From: Candidatus Acidiferrales bacterium
Lineage (GTDB): Bacteria; Acidobacteriota; Terriglobia; Acidiferrales; UBA7541
Reading direction: 5' to 3'
NCBI GenBank assembly: GCA_035272605.1
Contig: DATEQM010000016.1
Location: forward strand, 1 to 61,233
DNA length: 61,233 bases
This document shows positions 3,248 to 30,493 of this stretch, in pieces (within the stretch, counting starts at the first letter, position 1; the number at the start of each line of letters is the position of its first letter). Position numbers and translations under genes: made by a program. A model generated the notes under the pieces. That model saw nothing but the letters and a program-made list of their open reading frames with translations. It was not told the DNA's origin and did no database searches.

Positions 3248-3892
3248 TCACAGGCACTCGGTAATACGCAGCAGGGTTTGGAAGACCTCAGAAGAAGGGT
3301 GTGTGCGGAGATGGCTAAGCAGCCACTGCACCTCGAACTCTGGCTCCGCGCGGCGCACGGAAAGCCGCACCAGCGGACACCCGGGCAATTCCGCCGCCTG
3401 CAGCGCCTGGGCGGCGGCCGGGGAGTGGCCAGGGGCATAGGCCACCAGCGGCTCAGGGACGGGAAACGGGGTCCACTGTTCCTCGCGGCAACGGTGTTCC
3501 ACACCACGCGCAGACCACGCACGCGGATCCAGAATTTCGAATTGCACCCGAGGCCGGTTACCCAGCGTACCCCGGAAAATGAACAAATCGCGCCGGCCGC
3601 GCCATCGGGCCAGCGCCCACAGCGGAGCGACGTCGCGCGGCTCGAGAACCAGCATCACGACGGCTTGTCGGAACGGCCCTTTGGCGTTTGGGACCTTCAA
3701 TTCCACAACCGAGCTGCCCAGCCAGTGCAAAGTCGTTTTCTCGCCGATCAGAGGAAGGCCGTCCTGCAGCCAGCGCATCCAGGCGTGCCCTTTGCGGACG
3801 TTTATCTGCGTGCCGGCGGCAAACCAACCGACCACCAGCAGAACCACAAAGATGAACACAATGAGATTCGGGGACATGGAACCGCCGCGCAT
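3248..3892 (-). CDS. Hypothetical single-pass membrane-anchored protein
   Basis: 214-aa ORF with N-terminal hydrophobic helix NLIVFIFVVLLVVGWFAAG followed by a soluble domain; no family recognised. Start may be the downstream Met (MSPNL, 3877). Divergent from the small-protein/ArsA-like cassette with only ~30 bp between starts. Confidence 0.5.
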   Translation of the reverse strand: MRGGSMSPNLIVFIFVVLLVVGWFAAGTQINVRKGHAWMRWLQDGLPLIGEKTTLHWLGSSVVELKVPNAKGPFRQAVVMLVLEPRDVAPLWALARWRGRRDLFIFRGTLGNRPRVQFEILDPRAWSARGVEHRCREEQWTPFPVPEPLVAYAPGHSPAAAQALQAAELPGCPLVRLSVRRAEPEFEVQWLLSHLRTHPSSEVFQTLLRITECL

Positions 3893-3922
3893 CCCGGTCC
3901 GGGAGCGCAGAAACTATATTAC

Positions 3923-4249
3923 ATGTCGCGCCACGCTGCACCCGGGGGCCTCGCCGGCGGGGATCGAGGGAACCGGTCGAAACGCGGCTGGCTCCGGGCG
4001 GTCCGGGAGTTTCTCTACGGGCTGACGGGGTACGAGTTCGAGCGCCAGGCGCTGGAGTTACGGGGCGAGCTGGAGTCCGCCTTCATGCTGATCACCCTGG
4101 GAGACATGCTGGGTGTCCCGGTGGTTCCTCCGTTGTATTCGCTGCGGATCCTGCCGTATGTGGTGCCCCAGATCGCTACCTGGAAACGGCGGGTGATGCA
4201 GGAACGAGACCTGGCAGACAAAGAGGAGTTCCATTTGCACGGCGTTTGA
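3923..4249 (+). CDS. Small protein, paralog 1 of the 4323-4616 product (polar N-terminus, conserved hydrophobic C-terminal core)
   Basis: C-terminal part of ORF 3128..4249; ATG at 3923. Core FMLITLGDMLGVPVVPPLYSLRILPYVVPQIATWKRRVM aligns almost residue-for-residue with LFILITMGDLLGIPILPPYYSLRLLPYVVPNIATWKRRML in the next gene. No family name recognised. Confidence 0.6.
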   Translation: MSRHAAPGGLAGGDRGNRSKRGWLRAVREFLYGLTGYEFERQALELRGELESAFMLITLGDMLGVPVVPPLYSLRILPYVVPQIATWKRRVMQERDLADKEEFHLHGV

Positions 4250-4322
4250 CAGACCCAGGAAGACCGGCCGCGAGGCCGCGCGGGAGTTCGCGGAGCTCCA
4301 GCCTTCGAACGGGAGAACACGT

Positions 4323-4670: not shown

Positions 4671-5654
4671 ATGTTACTGCGAGAAGCCTTTGAGAAAGAT
4701 AACGAAAGAAAGTACATCATGTTCGGCGGCAAGGGCGGCCTGGGAAAGACCACCTTCTCCGCGGCCACGGCCTTCTGGCTGGCCCAGCAGGGCCACAAGG
4801 TGCTGCTGTTTTCAGTGGACCCGCAGGCTTCGCTGAGCGACATCTTCAAACAGGACATCTTCGGCAAGGGCGCCGTGAAGATCATGGAAAATCTCTACGC
4901 CCAGGAAATTGACGCCGACAGCCATATCCGCCGCTACCAGGATGAGATCCGCAAGAAGATTCGCGACATGTACGGGATCGACGAGGTGCCGGAAGAGATC
5001 GAACACTACATCCAGGCGGCTTCGGCGGAGCCGGCCATGGAGGAATCGGCCATCTTCGATGCCGTGGTGGACATCGTGGTGGGCGGGGACTACGACTTTT
5101 ATATCTACGACCTCGTGCCGCTGGGCCACGCCCTCTATTACCTCTCCATGGCCAAGGTGTACGACGAATGGATCAACCGCATCACCAAACTGCGCCACGA
5201 AATGCGCGAGCAGGAAGTGATGGTGGCGCGCATCAAGCGCGAGAAGGTCACGGAAGAAGACCAGATTCTCACCGAGCTGGAGTACATCAAGAACCGCATC
5301 AATCAGTCATCGAACATCCTGACCGACCGGAAGAAGACGGCGTTTTACTTCGTGGTGGTTCCCGAAGAGATGATCATTCTGGACACGGCGAAGGCGGCGC
5401 AACTCTTCGCCAAGTTCGACGTGCCACTGGCGGGTTACATAGTCAACCGCGTGCTCCCCGCAGATCTGGCGGGTCAGAACATCCCCCCCTACCTCCAGAA
5501 CCGCCTGAAGATGCAGAACCGCTATCTCGAAGAGATCGACAAGACCTTCGGTGCCCAGGTGGTCGGACGCGTGCCGGAACTGGAACGGGACGTTACCGGA
5601 CTGCCCATGATCGAAAAGCTGGCCGGGATCATGTTCGGCAACGGGAAAGCGTGA
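4671..5654 (+). CDS. ArsA/GET3/TRC40-family P-loop ATPase, cysteine-free, degenerate switch II
   Basis: Deviant Walker A FGGKGGLGKTT, then the ArsA-type VDPQASLSD (canonical DPAHSL). The switch II region reads YDLVPLGH where the canonical form is DTAPTGH. The 327 aa contain no Cys. Confidence 0.85.
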   Translation: MLLREAFEKDNERKYIMFGGKGGLGKTTFSAATAFWLAQQGHKVLLFSVDPQASLSDIFKQDIFGKGAVKIMENLYAQEIDADSHIRRYQDEIRKKIRDMYGIDEVPEEIEHYIQAASAEPAMEESAIFDAVVDIVVGGDYDFYIYDLVPLGHALYYLSMAKVYDEWINRITKLRHEMREQEVMVARIKREKVTEEDQILTELEYIKNRINQSSNILTDRKKTAFYFVVVPEEMIILDTAKAAQLFAKFDVPLAGYIVNRVLPADLAGQNIPPYLQNRLKMQNRYLEEIDKTFGAQVVGRVPELERDVTGLPMIEKLAGIMFGNGKA

Positions 5655-25848: not shown

Positions 25849-26277
25849 CTATTCGCAGAAGATTCGCACCTTCTTGCCGTTGCCCTTGTCGATGTCAATG
25901 CCCGTCTTTTCAAGAGCATCAGCGAGTTCATTCATGGAGGCAAAGCGCCCCAAATCGATTCCCTGCTCCGCCAGACGCTCCGTCACCCGCGGAGGCATGA
26001 GCGCCAATATGCGGCTGCTGCGCACCAGCGAAAGGGGCAGGCGCATGTTGATCTGGTCGTGGCCGGGCTTGTCTACCTGGATGCGTAGAAATCGAGGCTT
26101 TCGTGCATCGCCGCCTGGGCCAGCCTCATTCCGGCCGCTCGACGCAGCCTCGCTTGATGTGGAACTCGCTCGGTTCGCCGCTGCGCCGGAGAGCCTGTCG
26201 AGCAACTTTTCCGCGTCTTCCGCACTGATCTTGCCCTCCTTGAGCAACTCGAGTACTCGCTTGGTTTCGGCAGACAT
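25849..26277 (-). CDS. SHOCT-like / YvlB-LiaX N-terminal-domain protein
   Basis: MSAETKRVLELLKEGKISAEDAEKLLDRL is the typical SHOCT-like opening helix pair. The start lies 3 bp after the DUF2089 gene stop. Confidence 0.6.
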   Translation of the reverse strand: MSAETKRVLELLKEGKISAEDAEKLLDRLSGAAANRASSTSSEAASSGRNEAGPGGDARKPRFLRIQVDKPGHDQINMRLPLSLVRSSRILALMPPRVTERLAEQGIDLGRFASMNELADALEKTGIDIDKGNGKKVRIFCE

Positions 26278-26279
26278 GG

Positions 26280-26702
26280 CTATTTATCTCCTTCTTTTGC
26301 CCCGGTGAGCCTTTCAAGCGCTTCTTCCACGCTCAGCTCCCCGCGCGACAATTGTTCCAACACGTACAGATTGGGCGAAGGCCCCTCGAAATTCCTGTCT
26401 AATGCGGCCGAGATGGCGTTCAGGCGATTTTTCACCGTGGGATAGCTGATTCCGAACAGGCTCTCCATCTTCTTCAACGAGCCGTGATGTCGAACAAAGG
26501 CAATTACGAAGGCCTGATCCTCCTCGCTCAATTTTCCCAGCGCGGAGACCTCGAATTCCCCTTCAATAGCCAGCTTGCACGAAGGGCAGGTCATGCGACC
26601 CACTTTCAAGGGTTGGTGGCAATCGGGGCAGAGCGCTTTGGATATATCCACGCGAGTATCACCGAACACAAGCACATTAACGCAAATACTAACGAATATC
26701 AA
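26280..26702 (-). CDS. DUF2089-type zinc-ribbon/HTH protein (start uncertain)
   Basis: CPDCHQPL...CPSCKL zinc ribbon, then SEEDQAFVIAFVRHHGSLKKMESLFGISYPTVKNRL, as recalled for DUF2089. The true start is possibly an internal GTG near 26660. Confidence 0.65.
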   Translation of the reverse strand: MIFVSICVNVLVFGDTRVDISKALCPDCHQPLKVGRMTCPSCKLAIEGEFEVSALGKLSEEDQAFVIAFVRHHGSLKKMESLFGISYPTVKNRLNAISAALDRNFEGPSPNLYVLEQLSRGELSVEEALERLTGAKEGDK

Positions 26703-26744: not shown

Positions 26745-27332
26745 CTATCTTAATTTTCCTATACTTACACGCTCCTGCGCGATCTGGAGCAGTTGGATCG
26801 GCAAAGGGAGGTCAGAGGGAGTCCTGCCCCGATGCACCCACTGAATGCGTCCATCCTGGGCTATCAGTGCGGCGCCCGGAAGTTGCAAGACGTCGCTATG
26901 CTTACGAAAAGTTCCTTTCAGACTGATTAGAAAGCCCGCGGCCTTAGCCGCGGCTCGCCGGCGCCGGCCTTCGGGCGTCGGGAACAGGATGCTCCACCAG
27001 TCGGTGCGCTCGAGACCCATCGCGCGGTAACTCTCCCGCCGGGGGTCTGCGATGCAGACCGACGCGACGCCGTGGCGCCCACAGAAGCGCGCCATCTCCT
27101 CCGCAGTTCCTTGGACAACGCAGCCCACTCGGATGCCGCGCTCGTCGAATCGAGGCAGCGTCTCGCGCAACTGCGCGAGTGTCTCCGAATAGAACGGTCA
27201 GCCAAAATGCCGCAGCCACAGGATGAGCGCGGGCCCGCTGGCCCACGATTCAGACAGAAGATGCGACTCGCCGGAAGCAGTCTGGTATTTGAATTCCGGG
27301 GCGGCATCCCCGAAGGCCGGTGCGCTCCTCAT
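26745..27332 (-). CDS. Peroxiredoxin-like (AhpC/TSA, Prx-like2) thiol oxidoreductase with in-frame TGA at codon 45; probable selenoprotein
   Basis: My own minus-strand translation from ATG 27332: MRSAPAFGDAAPEFKYQTASGESHLLSESWASGPALILWLRHFG-TGA-PFYSETLAQLRETLPRFDERG..., running in frame into ORF 26745..27170. The TGA (27200-27198) falls where Prx-like2 proteins carry the redox Cys (R-x-F-G-C-x-x-C). Confidence 0.6.
27162..27179 (-). promoter_or_regulatory. Candidate bacterial SECIS hairpin
   Basis: On the mRNA: CUCGCGC-AGUU-GCGCGAG, a 7-bp stem starting 18 nt after the UGA. The apical loop contains GU and starts ~25 nt after the UGA, within the spacing I recall for bacterial SECIS elements. 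Confidence 0.45.
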
Positions 27333-27498
27333 ACGCGAACCTCCCTGCACCCCATTCGCTTCAATCCTAACGCGGAATGCACGGCCCGCGAGAGCCTGAC
27401 TGGCGTCCGGCCGCGGGGTTTCCCTGAGCCAATCTTTCCCCTTGCGCTTCTACAAGAGAAGAGCTACCTTTTCTCCTGTAGGAGCGACAGGGGAACCA

Positions 27499-27831
27499 GT
27501 GGCGCAACAACACATCGATCTGCCCCAGGGCACGCTTGATCTTCTCATCCTGAAGACCCTGACTCTGGAGCCGCAGCACGGCTGGGCCATCTCCGAGCGC
27601 GTCCAGCAGATTTCTCAGGACGTGCTTCGGCTCCAGCAGGGATCGCTATACCCCGCTCTCCACCGGCTGGAGCGCCGCGGGTGGATCAAAGCCCGCTGGG
27701 GCACCTCCGAGAACAACCGCCGGGCCAAATACTACGAACTGACGGCCAGCGGCCGCAAACAGCTCGAAGCGGAAGAAAGCGCGTGGCGGAAGCTCGCCGC
27801 GGCCGTCGCGCAGGTGCTGGAGACGGCCTAG
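27499..27831 (+). CDS. PadR-family transcriptional regulator
   Basis: LDLLILKTLTLEPQHGWAISERV...GSLYPALHRLERRGWI winged helix. Probable GTG start at 27499 after ggagcgacagggga; ORF 27442 is the outer limit. Confidence 0.85.
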   Translation: MAQQHIDLPQGTLDLLILKTLTLEPQHGWAISERVQQISQDVLRLQQGSLYPALHRLERRGWIKARWGTSENNRRAKYYELTASGRKQLEAEESAWRKLAAAVAQVLETA

Positions 27832-27841
27832 GAGCGCGGCG

Positions 27842-30493
27842 ATGCTGAGCGATCTGGTGGTCCGAATTCGTTCCCTCTTCCGCCGCGCCTCCGTGGAGGC
27901 GGAAATGAACGATGAGTTGCGCTTCCACATTGAACGTCAGACCGAAAAGCTGGCCGCCGCCGGCATTCCTCGCGAAGAGGCGGCGCGTCGCGCCCATTTG
28001 GAGTTCGGTGGCGTGGAACAGGTGAAAGAAGAATGCCGCGACGCTCGCGGCACGAGCCTCGTCGAGAGCCTGCTGCAGGACGTGCGCTACGCCCTGCGCA
28101 TTCTACGGAAAAATCCCGGATTCACCGCAGTAAGCATGCTCACGCTGGCGCTGGGCATCGGCGCCAATACCGCGATGTTCAGCATCGTCTACGCCGTGCT
28201 CGTTCGCCCCCTGCCGTACGCGCATCCCCAGCGACTCACTATGGTCTGGCAGAAGGACGATCTCGGACGCCCCGGCAACACCTCCTTCGCCACCTACACC
28301 GACTGGAAAACCCGCAACCACAGTTTCGAGCAGTTGGCACTCTTCCGCTCCTGGCAGCCGGTTCTCTCCGGGCGGGGCGATCCGCAAAAACTGATCGGCC
28401 TCCGCGTCTCGAACAATTTCTTTCGGACCCTCGGCGTTCGTCCGGAACTCGGCCGCGATCTGCGTCCTGAGGAGGACCAGCCCTCCACCAGCCACGTGGT
28501 GCTCCTGAGCCACGGGCTTTGGGAGCGGCAATTCGGCTCTGACCCTGCGATCGCGGGCAAAACGATCACCCTGAATGCCGCGAGCTACCTCGTCGCCGGC
28601 GTCCTCCCCGCGGATTTCGAATCGCTCCTCCGCACCGATCCCGCTGGAGGGCCGCCGGAGATTTTCGGCGCGCTCGGCTACGACGCCTCTCTTCCCTGGG
28701 CCTGTCGCACCTGCCAGCACCTTCAGGCCATCGGCCGCGTTCGTTTCGGCGTCAGCTTTGCCCAGGCTCAAGCGGAAATGGACGCAATCTCCGCGGCGCT
28801 CTGGAAGGAACATCCATCCGAGTATTCGGCCTCCGGCGTGATTTTCACTCCGCTCCGCGAGCACCTGCTCGGGCCGCTCAGCCGGATGCTCTACGTGCTC
28901 CTCGGCGCGGTTAGCTTTGTGCTGCTGATCGCCTGCGTCAACCTCGCCAATCTCCTGCTGGCCCGCGCCGCCCACCGGGAACGGGAGATGGCCGTGCGCG
29001 CGACGCTGGGCGCTGGCCGGCTCCGCATGGTCCGGCAATTAATCGTCGAGAACTGGCTGCTGGCGACCGCGGGCGCTGCCGCGGGACTCCTCCCCGCTTG
29101 GTGGACGCCGCGCGTGCTGTCTGCCATTGGCGCCGGCGGGCTCCCCCGCCTCGCGGACGTACGGCTGGATTGGCACGTACTCCTCTTCGCGTTTCTCGCC
29201 GCCCTGCTCACCGGCCTCGTTTCCGGCATCGTGCCCGCCCTCCGCCTCTCGAAGTTGGCTCTGCACGACTCCCTGCGCGAGCGCGTGGAAGGCTCTTCCG
29301 GCGCGGCGCACCGCCGGCTGCGCGGGCTGTTCGTGGTTACCGAAATCGCGCTTTCGCTCACGCTGCTGGTGGGCGCGGGGCTCCTGCTTCGCAGCCTCTC
29401 CCGTTTGCTGGAGGTTGCTCCGGGATTCGATCCCCAAAATGTGCTCACCTTGATCATCTCCACCAGCGGGCCGCGGTACGACCAGAACGCGGCGCTACGG
29501 CAGTTCTACACCGATGTGTTGCAGCGCGCTGCGGCACTGCCGGGCGTTAAAGCCGTCGGCATGACCAGCGAGGTGCCCCTCGGCGGGAACATGGACCAAT
29601 ACGGTTTTCACGCCGAAGGAAAGATGAACGCGAATCCGGAGCTGGACCCCAGCGCGGAACGCTACTGCGTCTCCCCCGGCTACCGCCGCGCCATGCGCAT
29701 TCCCCTTCTCCGCGGCCGCGATCTCGCCCCAAGCGATGCGGAGGGTGCCCCGCTCGCGCTTCTGATCAACCAAGCCACCGCTCGGGAGATCTGGCCGGGC
29801 GAAGACCCGCTCGGCAAACGCGTGAAACTCGGCGGGACGGACAAACCCTGGTGGACCGTGGTCGGCATCGTCGGTGACGTGCATCAAGGCGCGCTCGATG
29901 CTCGACCCAACATGCAGTTCTACGTTCCCCACGCGCAATGGCCCTATCCCGACTCCGACATGGTCCTCGCCATACGCACCTCCGGCCCGGCCGCCGGCAT
30001 GATTTCCGCCATTCGCCAGGTCATCCATTCCGTGGACCCGAACCAGCCGGTCTCCCGCATCATGACGCTCCAGGAATATATCGGGGCCTCCGTGGGAAGC
30101 CGCCGGCTGGTCCTGATCCTATTGAATATCTTCGCCGGCATTGCGGTGTCGCTCGCTATCGTGGGGATTTACGGCGTGGCCTCCTACACCGTGGCCCAAC
30201 GCACGCATGAAATCGGCATCCGCATGGCTCTGGGGGCCCAGCGGCATGCGGTCCTGGGCATGTTGCTCGGCCAGGGCCTCGCGCTGGCCCTGGCCGGAAT
30301 CGGCATCGGCATCGCTGCGTCGTTCGAGTTGACGCGCTTCCTGGGCAGCCTGCTGTTCGGCGTCACCCCCACCGACCCCGCGACCTTTGCTGTCGTCTCC
30401 CTGCTCCTCGCGGGCGCGGCGCTCGCCGCTTTCTATCTTCCTGCGCGCCGCGCCATGCGCGTGGATCCCTTGGTGGCGCTGCGTTATGAGTAG
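27842..30493 (+). CDS. ADOP-family duplicated MacB/FtsX-type permease
   Basis: 883 aa. The N-terminal 'permease prefix' EMNDELRFHIERQTEKL...VKEECRDARG is followed by two MacB periplasmic-domain + FtsX modules (REMAVRATLGA..., HEIGIRMALGA...). Confidence 0.9.
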   Translation: MLSDLVVRIRSLFRRASVEAEMNDELRFHIERQTEKLAAAGIPREEAARRAHLEFGGVEQVKEECRDARGTSLVESLLQDVRYALRILRKNPGFTAVSMLTLALGIGANTAMFSIVYAVLVRPLPYAHPQRLTMVWQKDDLGRPGNTSFATYTDWKTRNHSFEQLALFRSWQPVLSGRGDPQKLIGLRVSNNFFRTLGVRPELGRDLRPEEDQPSTSHVVLLSHGLWERQFGSDPAIAGKTITLNAASYLVAGVLPADFESLLRTDPAGGPPEIFGALGYDASLPWACRTCQHLQAIGRVRFGVSFAQAQAEMDAISAALWKEHPSEYSASGVIFTPLREHLLGPLSRMLYVLLGAVSFVLLIACVNLANLLLARAAHREREMAVRATLGAGRLRMVRQLIVENWLLATAGAAAGLLPAWWTPRVLSAIGAGGLPRLADVRLDWHVLLFAFLAALLTGLVSGIVPALRLSKLALHDSLRERVEGSSGAAHRRLRGLFVVTEIALSLTLLVGAGLLLRSLSRLLEVAPGFDPQNVLTLIISTSGPRYDQNAALRQFYTDVLQRAAALPGVKAVGMTSEVPLGGNMDQYGFHAEGKMNANPELDPSAERYCVSPGYRRAMRIPLLRGRDLAPSDAEGAPLALLINQATAREIWPGEDPLGKRVKLGGTDKPWWTVVGIVGDVHQGALDARPNMQFYVPHAQWPYPDSDMVLAIRTSGPAAGMISAIRQVIHSVDPNQPVSRIMTLQEYIGASVGSRRLVLILLNIFAGIAVSLAIVGIYGVASYTVAQRTHEIGIRMALGAQRHAVLGMLLGQGLALALAGIGIGIAASFELTRFLGSLLFGVTPTDPATFAVVSLLLAGAALAAFYLPARRAMRVDPLVALRYE

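What the first reader, a model, noticed from the sequence alone, without database searches (positions are those of the whole stretch)
26745..27332. Probable selenocysteine-containing peroxiredoxin-like protein, split by an in-frame TGA in the ORF track
Translating the minus strand from ATG 27332 gives 44 residues of a thioredoxin-fold N-terminus ending in ...LILWLRHFG. A TGA follows (27200-27198), then PFYSETLAQLRETLPRF..., continuing in the same frame into ORF 26745..27170.

The TGA sits exactly where Prx-like2/AhpC-TSA proteins carry the redox-active Cys (R-x-F-G-C-x-x-C). A 7-bp stem with an AGUU loop starts 18 nt downstream (27179-27162), which is SECIS-like geometry. The second position of the CxxC is Tyr (UPFY), an unusual one-Sec active site.
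Basis: partly seen in the sequence, partly recalled or inferred. Interest (0 to 1): 0.62.

Follow-up and report, generated by a model that had tools for sequence, protein, structure and literature searches.

The report
Selenocysteine Prx-like2 redox protein gene
This is a real selenoprotein gene: a small thioredoxin-fold redox enzyme of a soil acidobacterium whose active-site residue is selenocysteine, encoded by an in-frame TGA that gene callers read as a stop. It is a new example of a known kind, not a new mechanism.

Summary
The minus-strand frame runs from ATG 27332 to TAG 26745 (195 codons) with one in-frame TGA at 27200-27198. A 7-bp/AGUU hairpin lies at 27179-27162.

The selenoprotein reading is strongly supported:
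- The TGA is kept in all 13 other Sec-form loci I examined (31-74% identity).
- It aligns with the active-site Cys of Cys-containing homologues.
- Both sides of it are under purifying selection.
- The hairpin is 100% paired in 10 orthologues, with two compensatory changes and frozen synonymous sites.
- A hairpin of at least 6 bp is in 13 of 14 TGA forms (5 bp in the fourteenth) but in only 1 of 44 Cys forms.
- The genome encodes selA, selB and a Sec-containing selD. It also has AhpD-like and OsmC-like genes with an in-frame TGA and a downstream hairpin.
- TGA is the genome's commonest stop codon.
- The AlphaFold model (pLDDT 93) puts Sec45 at the N-cap of helix 1 of a Prx/Trx fold.

One gap remains. 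No tRNA-Sec gene is in this 84%-complete MAG, although a same-genus relative has one.

The protein belongs to the Prx-like2 / SelL-related group. Its clade has replaced the usual CxxC with U/C-x-F-Y/F. Public gene calls for its relatives are almost all cut short at the TGA.

Verdict: a new member of a known kind, of modest interest.

The parts
26745..27332 (-). Full selenoprotein coding sequence, 195 codons plus TAG stop. It encodes a Prx-like2 / SelL-related thioredoxin-fold protein.
   Evidence: Translation. Pfam PF13911 1.7e-15, PF00578 1.2e-10. NF040769 109.9 bits. Full-length orthologues with one TGA in 9 related genomes. AF2 pLDDT 93.1, single domain.
27198..27200 (-). Sec codon UGA (codon 45), the active-site nucleophile position.
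   Evidence: Invariant TGA in 10 aligned orthologues, aligned with Cys in P0029, P0038 and P0086. Aligned with Cys44 of the CxxC of human prostamide/PGF synthase 9us9. Lies between strand 35-39 and helix 46-64 in the model. Unchanged in independent metagenomes.
27162..27179 (-). Bacterial SECIS hairpin: 7-bp stem CUCGCGC/GCGCGAG with apical loop AGUU. The stem starts 18 nt after the UGA and the loop 25 nt after it.
   Evidence: 100% of 70 pair cells paired in 10 orthologues, with 2 compensatory pairs. Synonymous sites of codons 52-57 are frozen while neighbouring Leu/Arg codons vary. A hairpin of at least 6 bp is present in 13/14 TGA forms versus 1/44 Cys forms, Fisher p=6e-11.
27340..27346 (-). 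Shine-Dalgarno AGGGAGG, 7 nt upstream of ATG 27332.
   Evidence: Read directly from the sequence. It supports ATG 27332 rather than GTG 27350 as the start.
26745..27170 (-). The 141-aa ORF artefact (TTG 27170) that gene callers report when they stop at the TGA.
   Evidence: ORF list. 116 of the 120 listed database homologues are 108-158 aa. The six I read start just after the Sec position.

Best explanation
The gene at 27332-26745 (minus strand) encodes a 195-aa selenoprotein of the Prx-like2 / SelL-related thioredoxin-fold group.

Decoding (inferred from the established bacterial mechanism). When the ribosome reaches UGA45, the mRNA hairpin 18 nt downstream (27179-27162, loop AGUU) binds the C-terminal domain of SelB carrying Sec-tRNA(Sec). 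Selenocysteine is inserted instead of termination.

Position in the protein (shown by model and alignment). Sec45 sits in the motif W-L-R-H-F-G-U-P-F-Y at the N-terminal cap of helix 1. This is the position of the nucleophilic Cys of the CxxC motif in relatives such as prostamide/PGF synthase (PRXL2B).

Chemistry (inferred). The clade has Tyr or Phe where the second CxxC cysteine would be. I therefore infer a mono-selenol mechanism. The selenolate attacks an oxidised substrate: a peroxide, a disulfide, or a sulfenic or endoperoxide-type group. This forms a selenenic acid or selenenylsulfide. That intermediate is then resolved either by an external thiol (thioredoxin, glutaredoxin or a low-molecular-weight thiol) or by one of the clade-conserved cysteines (C71, C84, C93). 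The substrate and the recycling partner are not known.
For: Gene and UGA
- One open frame with a single TGA.
- Orthologues at 47-74% identity in 9 related genomes all carry one TGA in the same invariant column. W30, W39, R41, H42, G44 and F47 are conserved around it.
- More TGA forms: L059 and L061, and the distant UxFC type L032 and L033.
- Cys stands at this column in P0029, P0038 and P0086 and in 95 of 96 full-length relatives.
- Median pairwise dN/dS is about 0.24 upstream of the TGA and about 0.14 downstream.

Hairpin
- 100% paired, with 2 compensatory changes: G-C to A-U in G028 and G-C to C-G in G022.
- A hairpin of at least 6 bp in 13/14 TGA forms against 1/44 Cys forms.
- It fits the published bSECIS description: directly downstream of the UGA, with a small apical loop containing G (PMC1088965).

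Sec machinery and other selenoproteins in the same genome
- selB 315 bits, with the C-terminal part in the same 659-aa frame; selA 559 bits; selD 356 bits.
- selD is itself a Sec form, KAAGUAAKL.
- AhpD-like (CxxU) and OsmC-like genes with an in-frame TGA and a hairpin.
- tRNA-Sec (anticodon tca) is present in congener G007 and in G016 and G028.
- TGA ends 1758 of 3368 long ORFs, so it is not reassigned genome-wide.

Structure
- AF2 pLDDT 93.1, pTM 0.89.
- Best folds are Bcp1, PGFS and Prx5.
- Best PDB sequence match is PRXL2B, with U45 aligned on its Cys44.
Against: - No tRNA-Sec gene was found in this MAG (84% complete, 290 contigs). RF01852, ARAGORN and blastn with the congener's tRNA-Sec all failed. 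Four other fragmented same-genus MAGs also lack it.
- One Cys form (P0029, locus L050) keeps the identical hairpin. The hairpin alone therefore does not prove Sec decoding. I read this copy as a fossil SECIS left after a Sec-to-Cys change.
- Rfam has no model that matches the hairpin.
- There is no RNA, protein or selenium-labelling evidence.
- The chemistry (substrate, resolving thiol) is inferred from fold and motif only. The canonical peroxiredoxin Thr at -3 is absent.
Confidence: 0.93

Rival explanations
1. Pseudogene: a nonsense mutation has cut a Cys-type Prx-like2 gene, and the upstream 44 codons are decaying.
For: Gene callers report only the 141-aa downstream ORF. No tRNA-Sec is found in this MAG.
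Against: - The same TGA is in 13 other Sec-form loci spanning 31-74% identity.
- The upstream codons are under purifying selection, dN/dS about 0.24.
- There are no frameshifts or further stops.
- The hairpin co-varies.
Confidence: 0.01
2. The UGA terminates translation. A 141-aa protein is then made from TTG 27170, or the UGA is read through with an ordinary amino acid (Trp, Cys or Gly) rather than Sec. On this view the hairpin serves another purpose, such as mRNA stability or translational pausing.
For: - The Cys form P0029 keeps the same hairpin.
- selC is not found here.
- There is no expression or proteomic evidence.
Against: - A 141-aa product would lack strand 1, the active-site loop and most of helix 1 of a confidently predicted single domain.
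- TTG 27170 lies inside the hairpin.
- TGA is the main stop codon of the genome.
- The UGA aligns with a catalytic Cys.
- selA, selB and selD are retained, and three other Sec-type genes are in the genome.
Confidence: 0.04
3. The gene is a true selenoprotein gene in the lineage, but is not decoded in this strain because the strain has lost selC.
For: tRNA-Sec is absent from this assembly and from four other fragmented congeners, but present in the near-complete G007.
Against: - selA, selB and a Sec-form selD are intact. A strain without selC could not make its own SelD.
- The assembly is only 84% complete.
- The flanks of G007's tRNA-Sec are also absent from the assembly, which fits a missing region rather than a deletion.
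Confidence: 0.02

Closest known systems
NCBIfam NF040769 'SelL-related redox protein' (bacterial Prx-like2 group)
   Same: It is the best and only strong curated family hit, matching end to end over profile positions 2-171 of 173. It shares the R-H-F-G-C/U motif. Orthologue L061 (55% identical, UPFY) and the UxFC Sec form L032 score just above the cut-off, at 122.1 and 121.4 bits.
   Different: The window protein scores 109.9, below the 120-bit cut-off, as do the clade's Cys forms at 86-107 bits. The clade has U/C-x-F-Y/F instead of the CxxC seen in 70 of 96 relatives.
Eukaryotic Prx-like2 proteins: SelU/PRXL2A-C, including prostamide/prostaglandin F synthase (PRXL2B, PDB 9us9/9usa), and selenoprotein L
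   Same: PRXL2B is the best solved-structure sequence match (1.3e-5), with U45 on Cys44 of its CxxC. It is also a top Foldseek hit. SelU1 is a Sec-containing Prx-like2-domain protein in some eukaryotes (PMC3473315). SelL is a Prx-like selenoprotein (PMC2398784).
   Different: Identity is only about 21%. The eukaryotic forms use 3'-UTR SECIS elements. PRXL2B has CxxC and SelL has two Sec residues; here there is a single Sec and no second redox residue in the motif.
[quoted passage not shown]
   Same: They are Sec-containing thioredoxin-fold AhpC/TSA-type proteins with Sec at the first position of the redox motif and an in-ORF SECIS.
   Different: The listed motifs are UxxS and UxxC/UxxU. No UxxY or UxxF entry appears in the review text I searched. 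I could not fetch the review's example sequence, so I could not test whether it is the same clade.
Escherichia coli fdhF-type bacterial SECIS (established knowledge; description in PMC1088965)
   Same: A hairpin inside the coding region directly after the UGA, with a small apical loop containing G (here A-G-U-U).
   Different: The sequence is unrelated, and no Rfam model matches it. The stem starts 18 nt after the UGA. The same genome's selD hairpin starts 11 nt after its UGA and has a different loop.

Membership tests
Bacterial selenoprotein gene (SelB/SECIS-decoded UGA) | In-frame UGA aligned with Cys in homologues, with sequence conserved on both sides | tested here: met
Bacterial selenoprotein gene (SelB/SECIS-decoded UGA) | Stem-loop directly downstream of the UGA with a small apical loop containing G, conserved as a structure | tested here: met
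   100% paired with 2 compensatory pairs. 13/14 TGA forms versus 1/44 Cys forms. Criterion taken from PMC1088965.
Bacterial selenoprotein gene (SelB/SECIS-decoded UGA) | selA, selB and selD in the genome | tested here: met
   All three score over their curated cut-offs. selD is itself a Sec form.
Bacterial selenoprotein gene (SelB/SECIS-decoded UGA) | selC (tRNA-Sec, anticodon UCA) in the genome | tested here: inconclusive
   Not found in this 84%-complete MAG. Found in same-genus G007 and in G016 and G028.
Bacterial selenoprotein gene (SelB/SECIS-decoded UGA) | Selenium actually incorporated at the UGA position | not testable with these tools
   Needs 75Se labelling or mass spectrometry. No RNA runs were found.
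Pfam AhpC-TSA_2 (PF13911) / Prx-like2 | Score over the Pfam gathering threshold | tested here: met
   57.8 bits against 27.
NCBIfam NF040769 SelL-related redox protein | Score over the curated cut-off of 120 bits | tested here: not met
   109.9 bits for the window protein. Orthologue L061 reaches 122.1 and the clade's Cys forms 86-107. The clade straddles the family border.
NCBIfam NF040769 / Prx-like2 CxxC oxidoreductases | CxxC (or UxxC) dithiol motif | tested here: not met
   The motif is UPFY. The nearest relatives have CxxY or CxxF, whereas 70 of 96 wider relatives have CxxC. One orthologue (G016) has UPFC.
Canonical peroxiredoxin (PF00578; PxxxT/SxxC active site) | Pfam AhpC-TSA score over threshold | tested here: met
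   41.8 bits against 26. Prx-type folds are among the top Foldseek hits.
Canonical peroxiredoxin (PF00578; PxxxT/SxxC active site) | Thr or Ser three residues before the peroxidatic Cys/Sec (motif recalled from established knowledge) | tested here: not met
   His42 is at -3 and Arg41 at -4, both invariant in the clade. I therefore do not file it as a canonical peroxiredoxin.

The most novel reading that the evidence does not exclude
The U-x-F-Y/F clade may be a so far undescribed, Sec-dominant, mono-selenol branch of the Prx-like2 / SelL-related family, common in soil Acidobacteriota.

If so, Sec with this particular SECIS (GCGC-AGUU-GCGC) would be ancestral. Two observations point that way:
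- The same hairpin is kept in a separate UxFC branch only about 31% identical (L032, L033).
- It survives as a fossil in a Cys form (P0029).

This would imply repeated Sec-to-Cys replacement rather than Cys-to-Sec gain. It would also imply a catalytic cycle that needs no second motif cysteine.
Probability: 0.35. Interest if true: 0.45.

Novelty: new member of a known kind. Interest (0 to 1): 0.3.

Why it matters
Annotation. The gene and nearly all its database relatives are annotated as 108-158-aa 'AhpC/TSA family' fragments that lack their active site. Reading the TGA as Sec restores a complete enzyme. Together with the AhpD-like and OsmC-like TGA-bearing candidates and SelD, it shows that these soil Acidiferrales-type acidobacteria run a small selenoproteome directed at oxidative or thiol stress.

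Biochemistry. The clade offers a natural set of Sec, Cys and 'fossil SECIS' variants of one mono-nucleophile thioredoxin-fold enzyme. Such a set is useful for comparing Sec with Cys catalysis and for tracing the direction of Sec/Cys exchange.

None of this changes how Sec decoding is understood.

Tried and rejected
- Rfam (evalue mode) on 27050-27350 gave only a spurious Leu_leader hit at E=6.8. No SECIS family matched.
- tRNA-Sec in the window's own genome: the best RF01852 hits are tRNA-Ser. ARAGORN on the whole assembly found none. blastn with the congener's tRNA-Sec found nothing.
- Synteny around G007's tRNA-Sec was not recoverable in this assembly. I therefore cannot show that a gap sits exactly there.
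- Gene context as a clue to function:
  - The downstream DUF2089, SHOCT-like and HlyD genes are conserved in 5 of 5 same-genus loci.
  - The divergent PadR and ADOP permease genes are conserved in 3 of 5.
  - Nothing is conserved outside the genus.
  - I treat the context as inherited synteny, not functional linkage.
- No RNA-seq runs hold the gene.
- The single-sequence folding z-score is not significant.
- My genome-wide TGA-plus-hairpin scan was too strict. It missed this gene and selD, so it is not a census.
I could not measure distances from Sec45 to C71, C84 or C93.

Full report
**1. Observation**

On the minus strand the frame opens at ATG 27332. An AGGGAGG Shine-Dalgarno sequence lies 7 nt upstream. 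The frame gives 44 residues ending LILWLRHFG and meets TGA at 27200-27198. It then continues PFYSETLAQLRETLPRF... in the same frame through the listed ORF 26745..27170 to TAG. The total is 195 codons.

The hairpin CUCGCGC-AGUU-GCGCGAG lies at 27179-27162, 18 nt after the UGA.

The TGA is not an assembly error.
- It is unchanged in the source soil metagenome.
- It is unchanged in a diverged co-occurring strain contig. That contig has ten differences between 27162 and 27276 but none in the TGA.
- It is unchanged in an independent soil metagenome from 2025.

**2. The protein**

With Cys in place of Sec, the protein matches these families:

| Family | Result |
|---|---|
| Pfam AhpC-TSA_2 (PF13911) | 1.7e-15 |
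| Pfam AhpC-TSA | 1.2e-10 |
| Pfam Redoxin | 5.4e-10 |
| NCBIfam NF040769 'SelL-related redox protein' | 109.9 bits, end to end (cut-off 120) |

The best solved-structure relative by sequence is human prostamide/prostaglandin F synthase (PRXL2B, 9us9). Residue 45 aligns with Cys44 of its CxxC.

An AlphaFold2 model built on 34 sequences is confident (pLDDT 93.1, pTM 0.89). It is a single thioredoxin/peroxiredoxin-type domain. Residue 45 lies between strand 35-39 and helix 46-64, the classical nucleophile position. The top Foldseek hits are Bcp1, PGFS and Prx5.

**3. Conservation of the UGA**

A six-frame search of 40 related genomes found orthologues at 47-74% identity in nine of them. Each has exactly one TGA.

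In the protein alignment the TGA column is invariant. It is flanked by invariant W30, W39, R41, H42, G44 and F47. Three full-length metagenomic homologues carry Cys there: P0029 (RHCGCTFF), P0038 (RHFGCQFY) and P0086 (RHFGCRFY).

A scan of GTDB species genomes added two more TGA forms, L059 and L061, from Acidobacteriota. It also added many Cys forms from Vulcanimicrobiota, Ignavibacteriota, Bacteroidota, Spirochaetota, Chloroflexota and Dormibacterota. In an even sample of 400 genomes of the phylum, only two others have a close homologue, and both carry the TGA.

Median pairwise dN/dS is about 0.24 for codons 7-44 and about 0.14 for codons 46-180. The part before the TGA is therefore translated and under selection.

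Of the 120 listed hits in the 5.8-billion-protein search, 116 are 108-158 aa long and cover only the part after the TGA. The six I read start just after the Sec position. Three of them lie on contigs where I saw the TGA myself: G007, G002 and G005. The family is thus systematically cut short in public gene calls. NCBI names two of the fragments 'AhpC/TSA family protein' and 'peroxiredoxin-like family protein'.

**4. The hairpin**

Across the ten orthologues the 7-bp stem is paired in 70 of 70 cells. Two pairs change on both sides: G-C to A-U in G028, and G-C to C-G in G022. The G022 change costs an Arg-to-Gly replacement. Three further pairs change to G-U wobbles.

The six codons that form the hairpin (CTC GCG CAG TTG CGC GAG) have almost frozen synonymous positions. 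TTG for Leu55 is invariant. Leu40, Arg41 and Leu59 nearby use three or four codons each.

Over all distinct loci:

| Form | Hairpin of 6-7 bp with AGUU loop, starting 18-19 nt after the codon |
|---|---|
| TGA forms | 13 of 14 (the fourteenth, L033, has 5 bp) |
| Cys forms | 1 of 44 |

Fisher's p is 6e-11. The loci are phylogenetically related, so this number overstates independence.

[quoted passage not shown] Rfam has no matching model.

The one exception among the Cys forms is P0029 (locus L050). It has TGC but an identical hairpin. I read this as a fossil SECIS left after a Sec-to-Cys change.

**5. Sec machinery**

The window's genome is 3.45 Mb in 290 contigs and 84% complete. It encodes:
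- selB at 315 bits, with the C-terminal part in the same 659-aa frame;
- selA at 559 bits;
- selD at 356 bits.

SelD is itself a Sec form, KAAGUAAKL, with its own hairpin 11 nt after the UGA.

A crude TGA-plus-hairpin scan found two more candidate Sec-type genes. Both families are listed as selenoprotein families in the literature.

| Contig | Family | Pfam E-value | Motif |
|---|---|---|---|
| C163 | AhpD-like / CMD | 2.6e-16 | NGCEYU |
| C101 | OsmC-like | 1.1e-11 | ATGGUMLG...KCPVY |

TGA ends 1758 of 3368 long open frames, so it is the normal main stop codon.

The gap is selC.
- The best RF01852 hits in this genome are tRNA-Ser.
- ARAGORN finds no tRNA-Sec.
- The tRNA-Sec of the same-genus genome G007 has no blastn match here.

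G007 (96% complete, 7 contigs), G016 and G028 do carry a tRNA-Sec with anticodon tca. Four other fragmented congeners do not. A genome whose own SelD needs Sec cannot dispense with selC. I therefore attribute the absence to the assembly, although I could not show this directly.

**6. Place in the family**

The wider family has the motif L-R-H-F-G-C-x-F-C, with CxxC in 70 of 96 full-length relatives. The relatives nearest to this protein have CxxY or CxxF (14 of 96).

A maximum-likelihood tree separates a CxxC branch from a CxxY/F branch (93/94 support). All twelve U-x-F-Y/F-type Sec forms, including G016 with UPFC, sit in the CxxY/F branch together with Cys forms such as P0029, P0038 and P0086. 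Its internal order is unresolved. The two UxFC Sec forms (L032, L033; about 31% identical to the window protein) sit in the CxxC branch next to a Dormibacterota Cys form. At least two Sec/Cys changes are therefore required.

Both Sec groups carry the same GCGC-AGUU-GCGC hairpin at the same distance. This suggests either ancestral Sec with repeated loss, or convergence on the hairpin that this lineage's SelB prefers. I cannot decide between these.

Scores against NF040769 straddle the 120-bit cut-off:

| Protein | Bits |
|---|---|
| Window protein | 109.9 |
| L061 | 122.1 |
| L032 | 121.4 |
| The clade's Cys forms | 86-107 |
| CxxC relatives | 133-146 |

The canonical peroxiredoxin Thr at -3 is replaced by invariant His42, with Arg41 at -4. 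I therefore do not call it a peroxiredoxin proper.

**7. Mechanism**

*Shown.* There is a conserved UGA at the nucleophile position of a Trx/Prx fold. There is a conserved, co-varying hairpin in SECIS position. Sec biosynthesis and delivery genes are present.

*Inferred from the established bacterial pathway.* SelB with GTP and Sec-tRNA(Sec) binds the hairpin and delivers Sec when the UGA is in the A site.

*Inferred from fold and motif.* The selenolate of Sec45 attacks an oxidised substrate and forms a selenenic acid or a selenenylsulfide. The motif has no second cysteine. Resolution must therefore come from an external thiol system or from one of the clade-conserved cysteines C71, C84 or C93.

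The substrate is unknown. Characterised relatives include an endoperoxide reductase (PRXL2B).

**8. Context**

Downstream on the same strand lie, in order, a DUF2089 gene, a SHOCT-like gene, a HlyD-type adaptor gene and an ABC ATPase gene. Upstream and divergent lie PadR and an ADOP-type permease.

The downstream set is conserved in 5 of 5 same-genus loci. The PadR side is conserved in 3 of 5. Nothing is conserved outside the genus. I draw no functional link from the context.

**9. Known or new**

Thioredoxin-fold Sec/Cys families are the commonest class of bacterial selenoproteins. Prx-like families with UxxC, and a cd02970 'peroxiredoxin-like (AhpC/TSA)' family with UxxS, are already listed (PMC2398784, PMC13188914). 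Eukaryotic SelU and SelL are Prx-like2 or Prx-like selenoproteins.

I found no listing of a UxxY or UxxF form. I could not compare this clade with the review's example sequence.

I rate this a new member of a known kind. The annotation correction is sound, and there is a small evolutionary point in the fossil SECIS and the shared hairpin.

Noticed in passing
G000 contig C163, + strand, TGA at base 3984 (ORF about 3746-4274): Candidate AhpD-like / carboxymuconolactone-decarboxylase-family selenoprotein. Motif SMLNGCEYUTRAH (CxxU); hairpin CGCTTC-GGC-GAAGCG 14 nt after the TGA; Pfam CMD 2.6e-16 across the TGA.
   Followed up: partly
G000 contig C101, + strand, TGA at base 5237 (ORF about 5029-5506): Candidate OsmC-like selenoprotein. 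Motif ATGGUMLGT with the second conserved Cys in KCPVY; hairpin TGCCGG-CGCG-CTGGCA 14 nt after the TGA; Pfam OsmC 1.1e-11.
   Followed up: partly
G000 contig C17 (L010:1249-2199, minus strand): selD is itself a selenoprotein (KAAGUAAKL). Its hairpin GAGUCC...GGACUC starts 11 nt after the UGA and has a different loop from the Prx-like gene's AGUU.
   Followed up: partly
L050:3133-3170 (Logan contig carrying P0029): A Cys form (TGC) of the same clade keeps the exact 18-nt SECIS hairpin CTCGCGCAGTTGCGCGAG. This looks like a fossil SECIS after a Sec-to-Cys change.
   Followed up: partly
L032:1585-1640 and L033:904-960 (genomes G021 and G017, same family): A second, distant (about 31% identical) Sec-containing branch of the family has a YGUxFC motif. 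It carries the same GCGC-AGUU-GCGC hairpin at the same distance, although the tree puts it in the CxxC branch next to Cys forms.
   Followed up: partly
L052:3133-3151 (Cys form P0038) and L062 (Vulcanimicrobiota Cys form): These Cys forms lack the SECIS hairpin but have a different perfect GC-rich hairpin about 12 nt further downstream (GCGCGAC-GCGCA-GTCGCGC in L052). It is unexplained and may be chance in GC-rich DNA.
   Followed up: no
window 27156-27179: In the source soil metagenome the assembler's word depth jumps from 17.7 to 56.6 exactly over the hairpin, and unitigs break there. This fits several co-occurring organisms sharing the identical hairpin sequence.
   Followed up: no
window about 4614, + strand: My TGA-plus-hairpin scan also flagged an in-frame TGA (...SDAMF-TGA-GPERPGRGCWK...) followed by the hairpin CCGGCA-GAGGG-TGCTGG. 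This is most likely an ordinary stop followed by an in-frame neighbour gene. I did not examine it.
   Followed up: no
window 25849-26702 and 27442-30493: The DUF2089 and SHOCT-like pair downstream, and the divergent PadR and ADOP permease upstream, travel with the selenoprotein gene only within the genus (5/5 and 3/5 loci). A distant Cys-form locus (L053) also has a PadR gene two genes upstream and a Zn-ribbon protein gene downstream.
   Followed up: partly
database labels of relatives (P0023; L057 = G001): A 69%-identical truncated homologue is labelled 'Candidatus Nitrosotalea sp.', which is an archaeon. A same-genus MAG is labelled 'Candidatus Binatia bacterium'. These are probably binning or labelling errors in the public records.
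   Followed up: no
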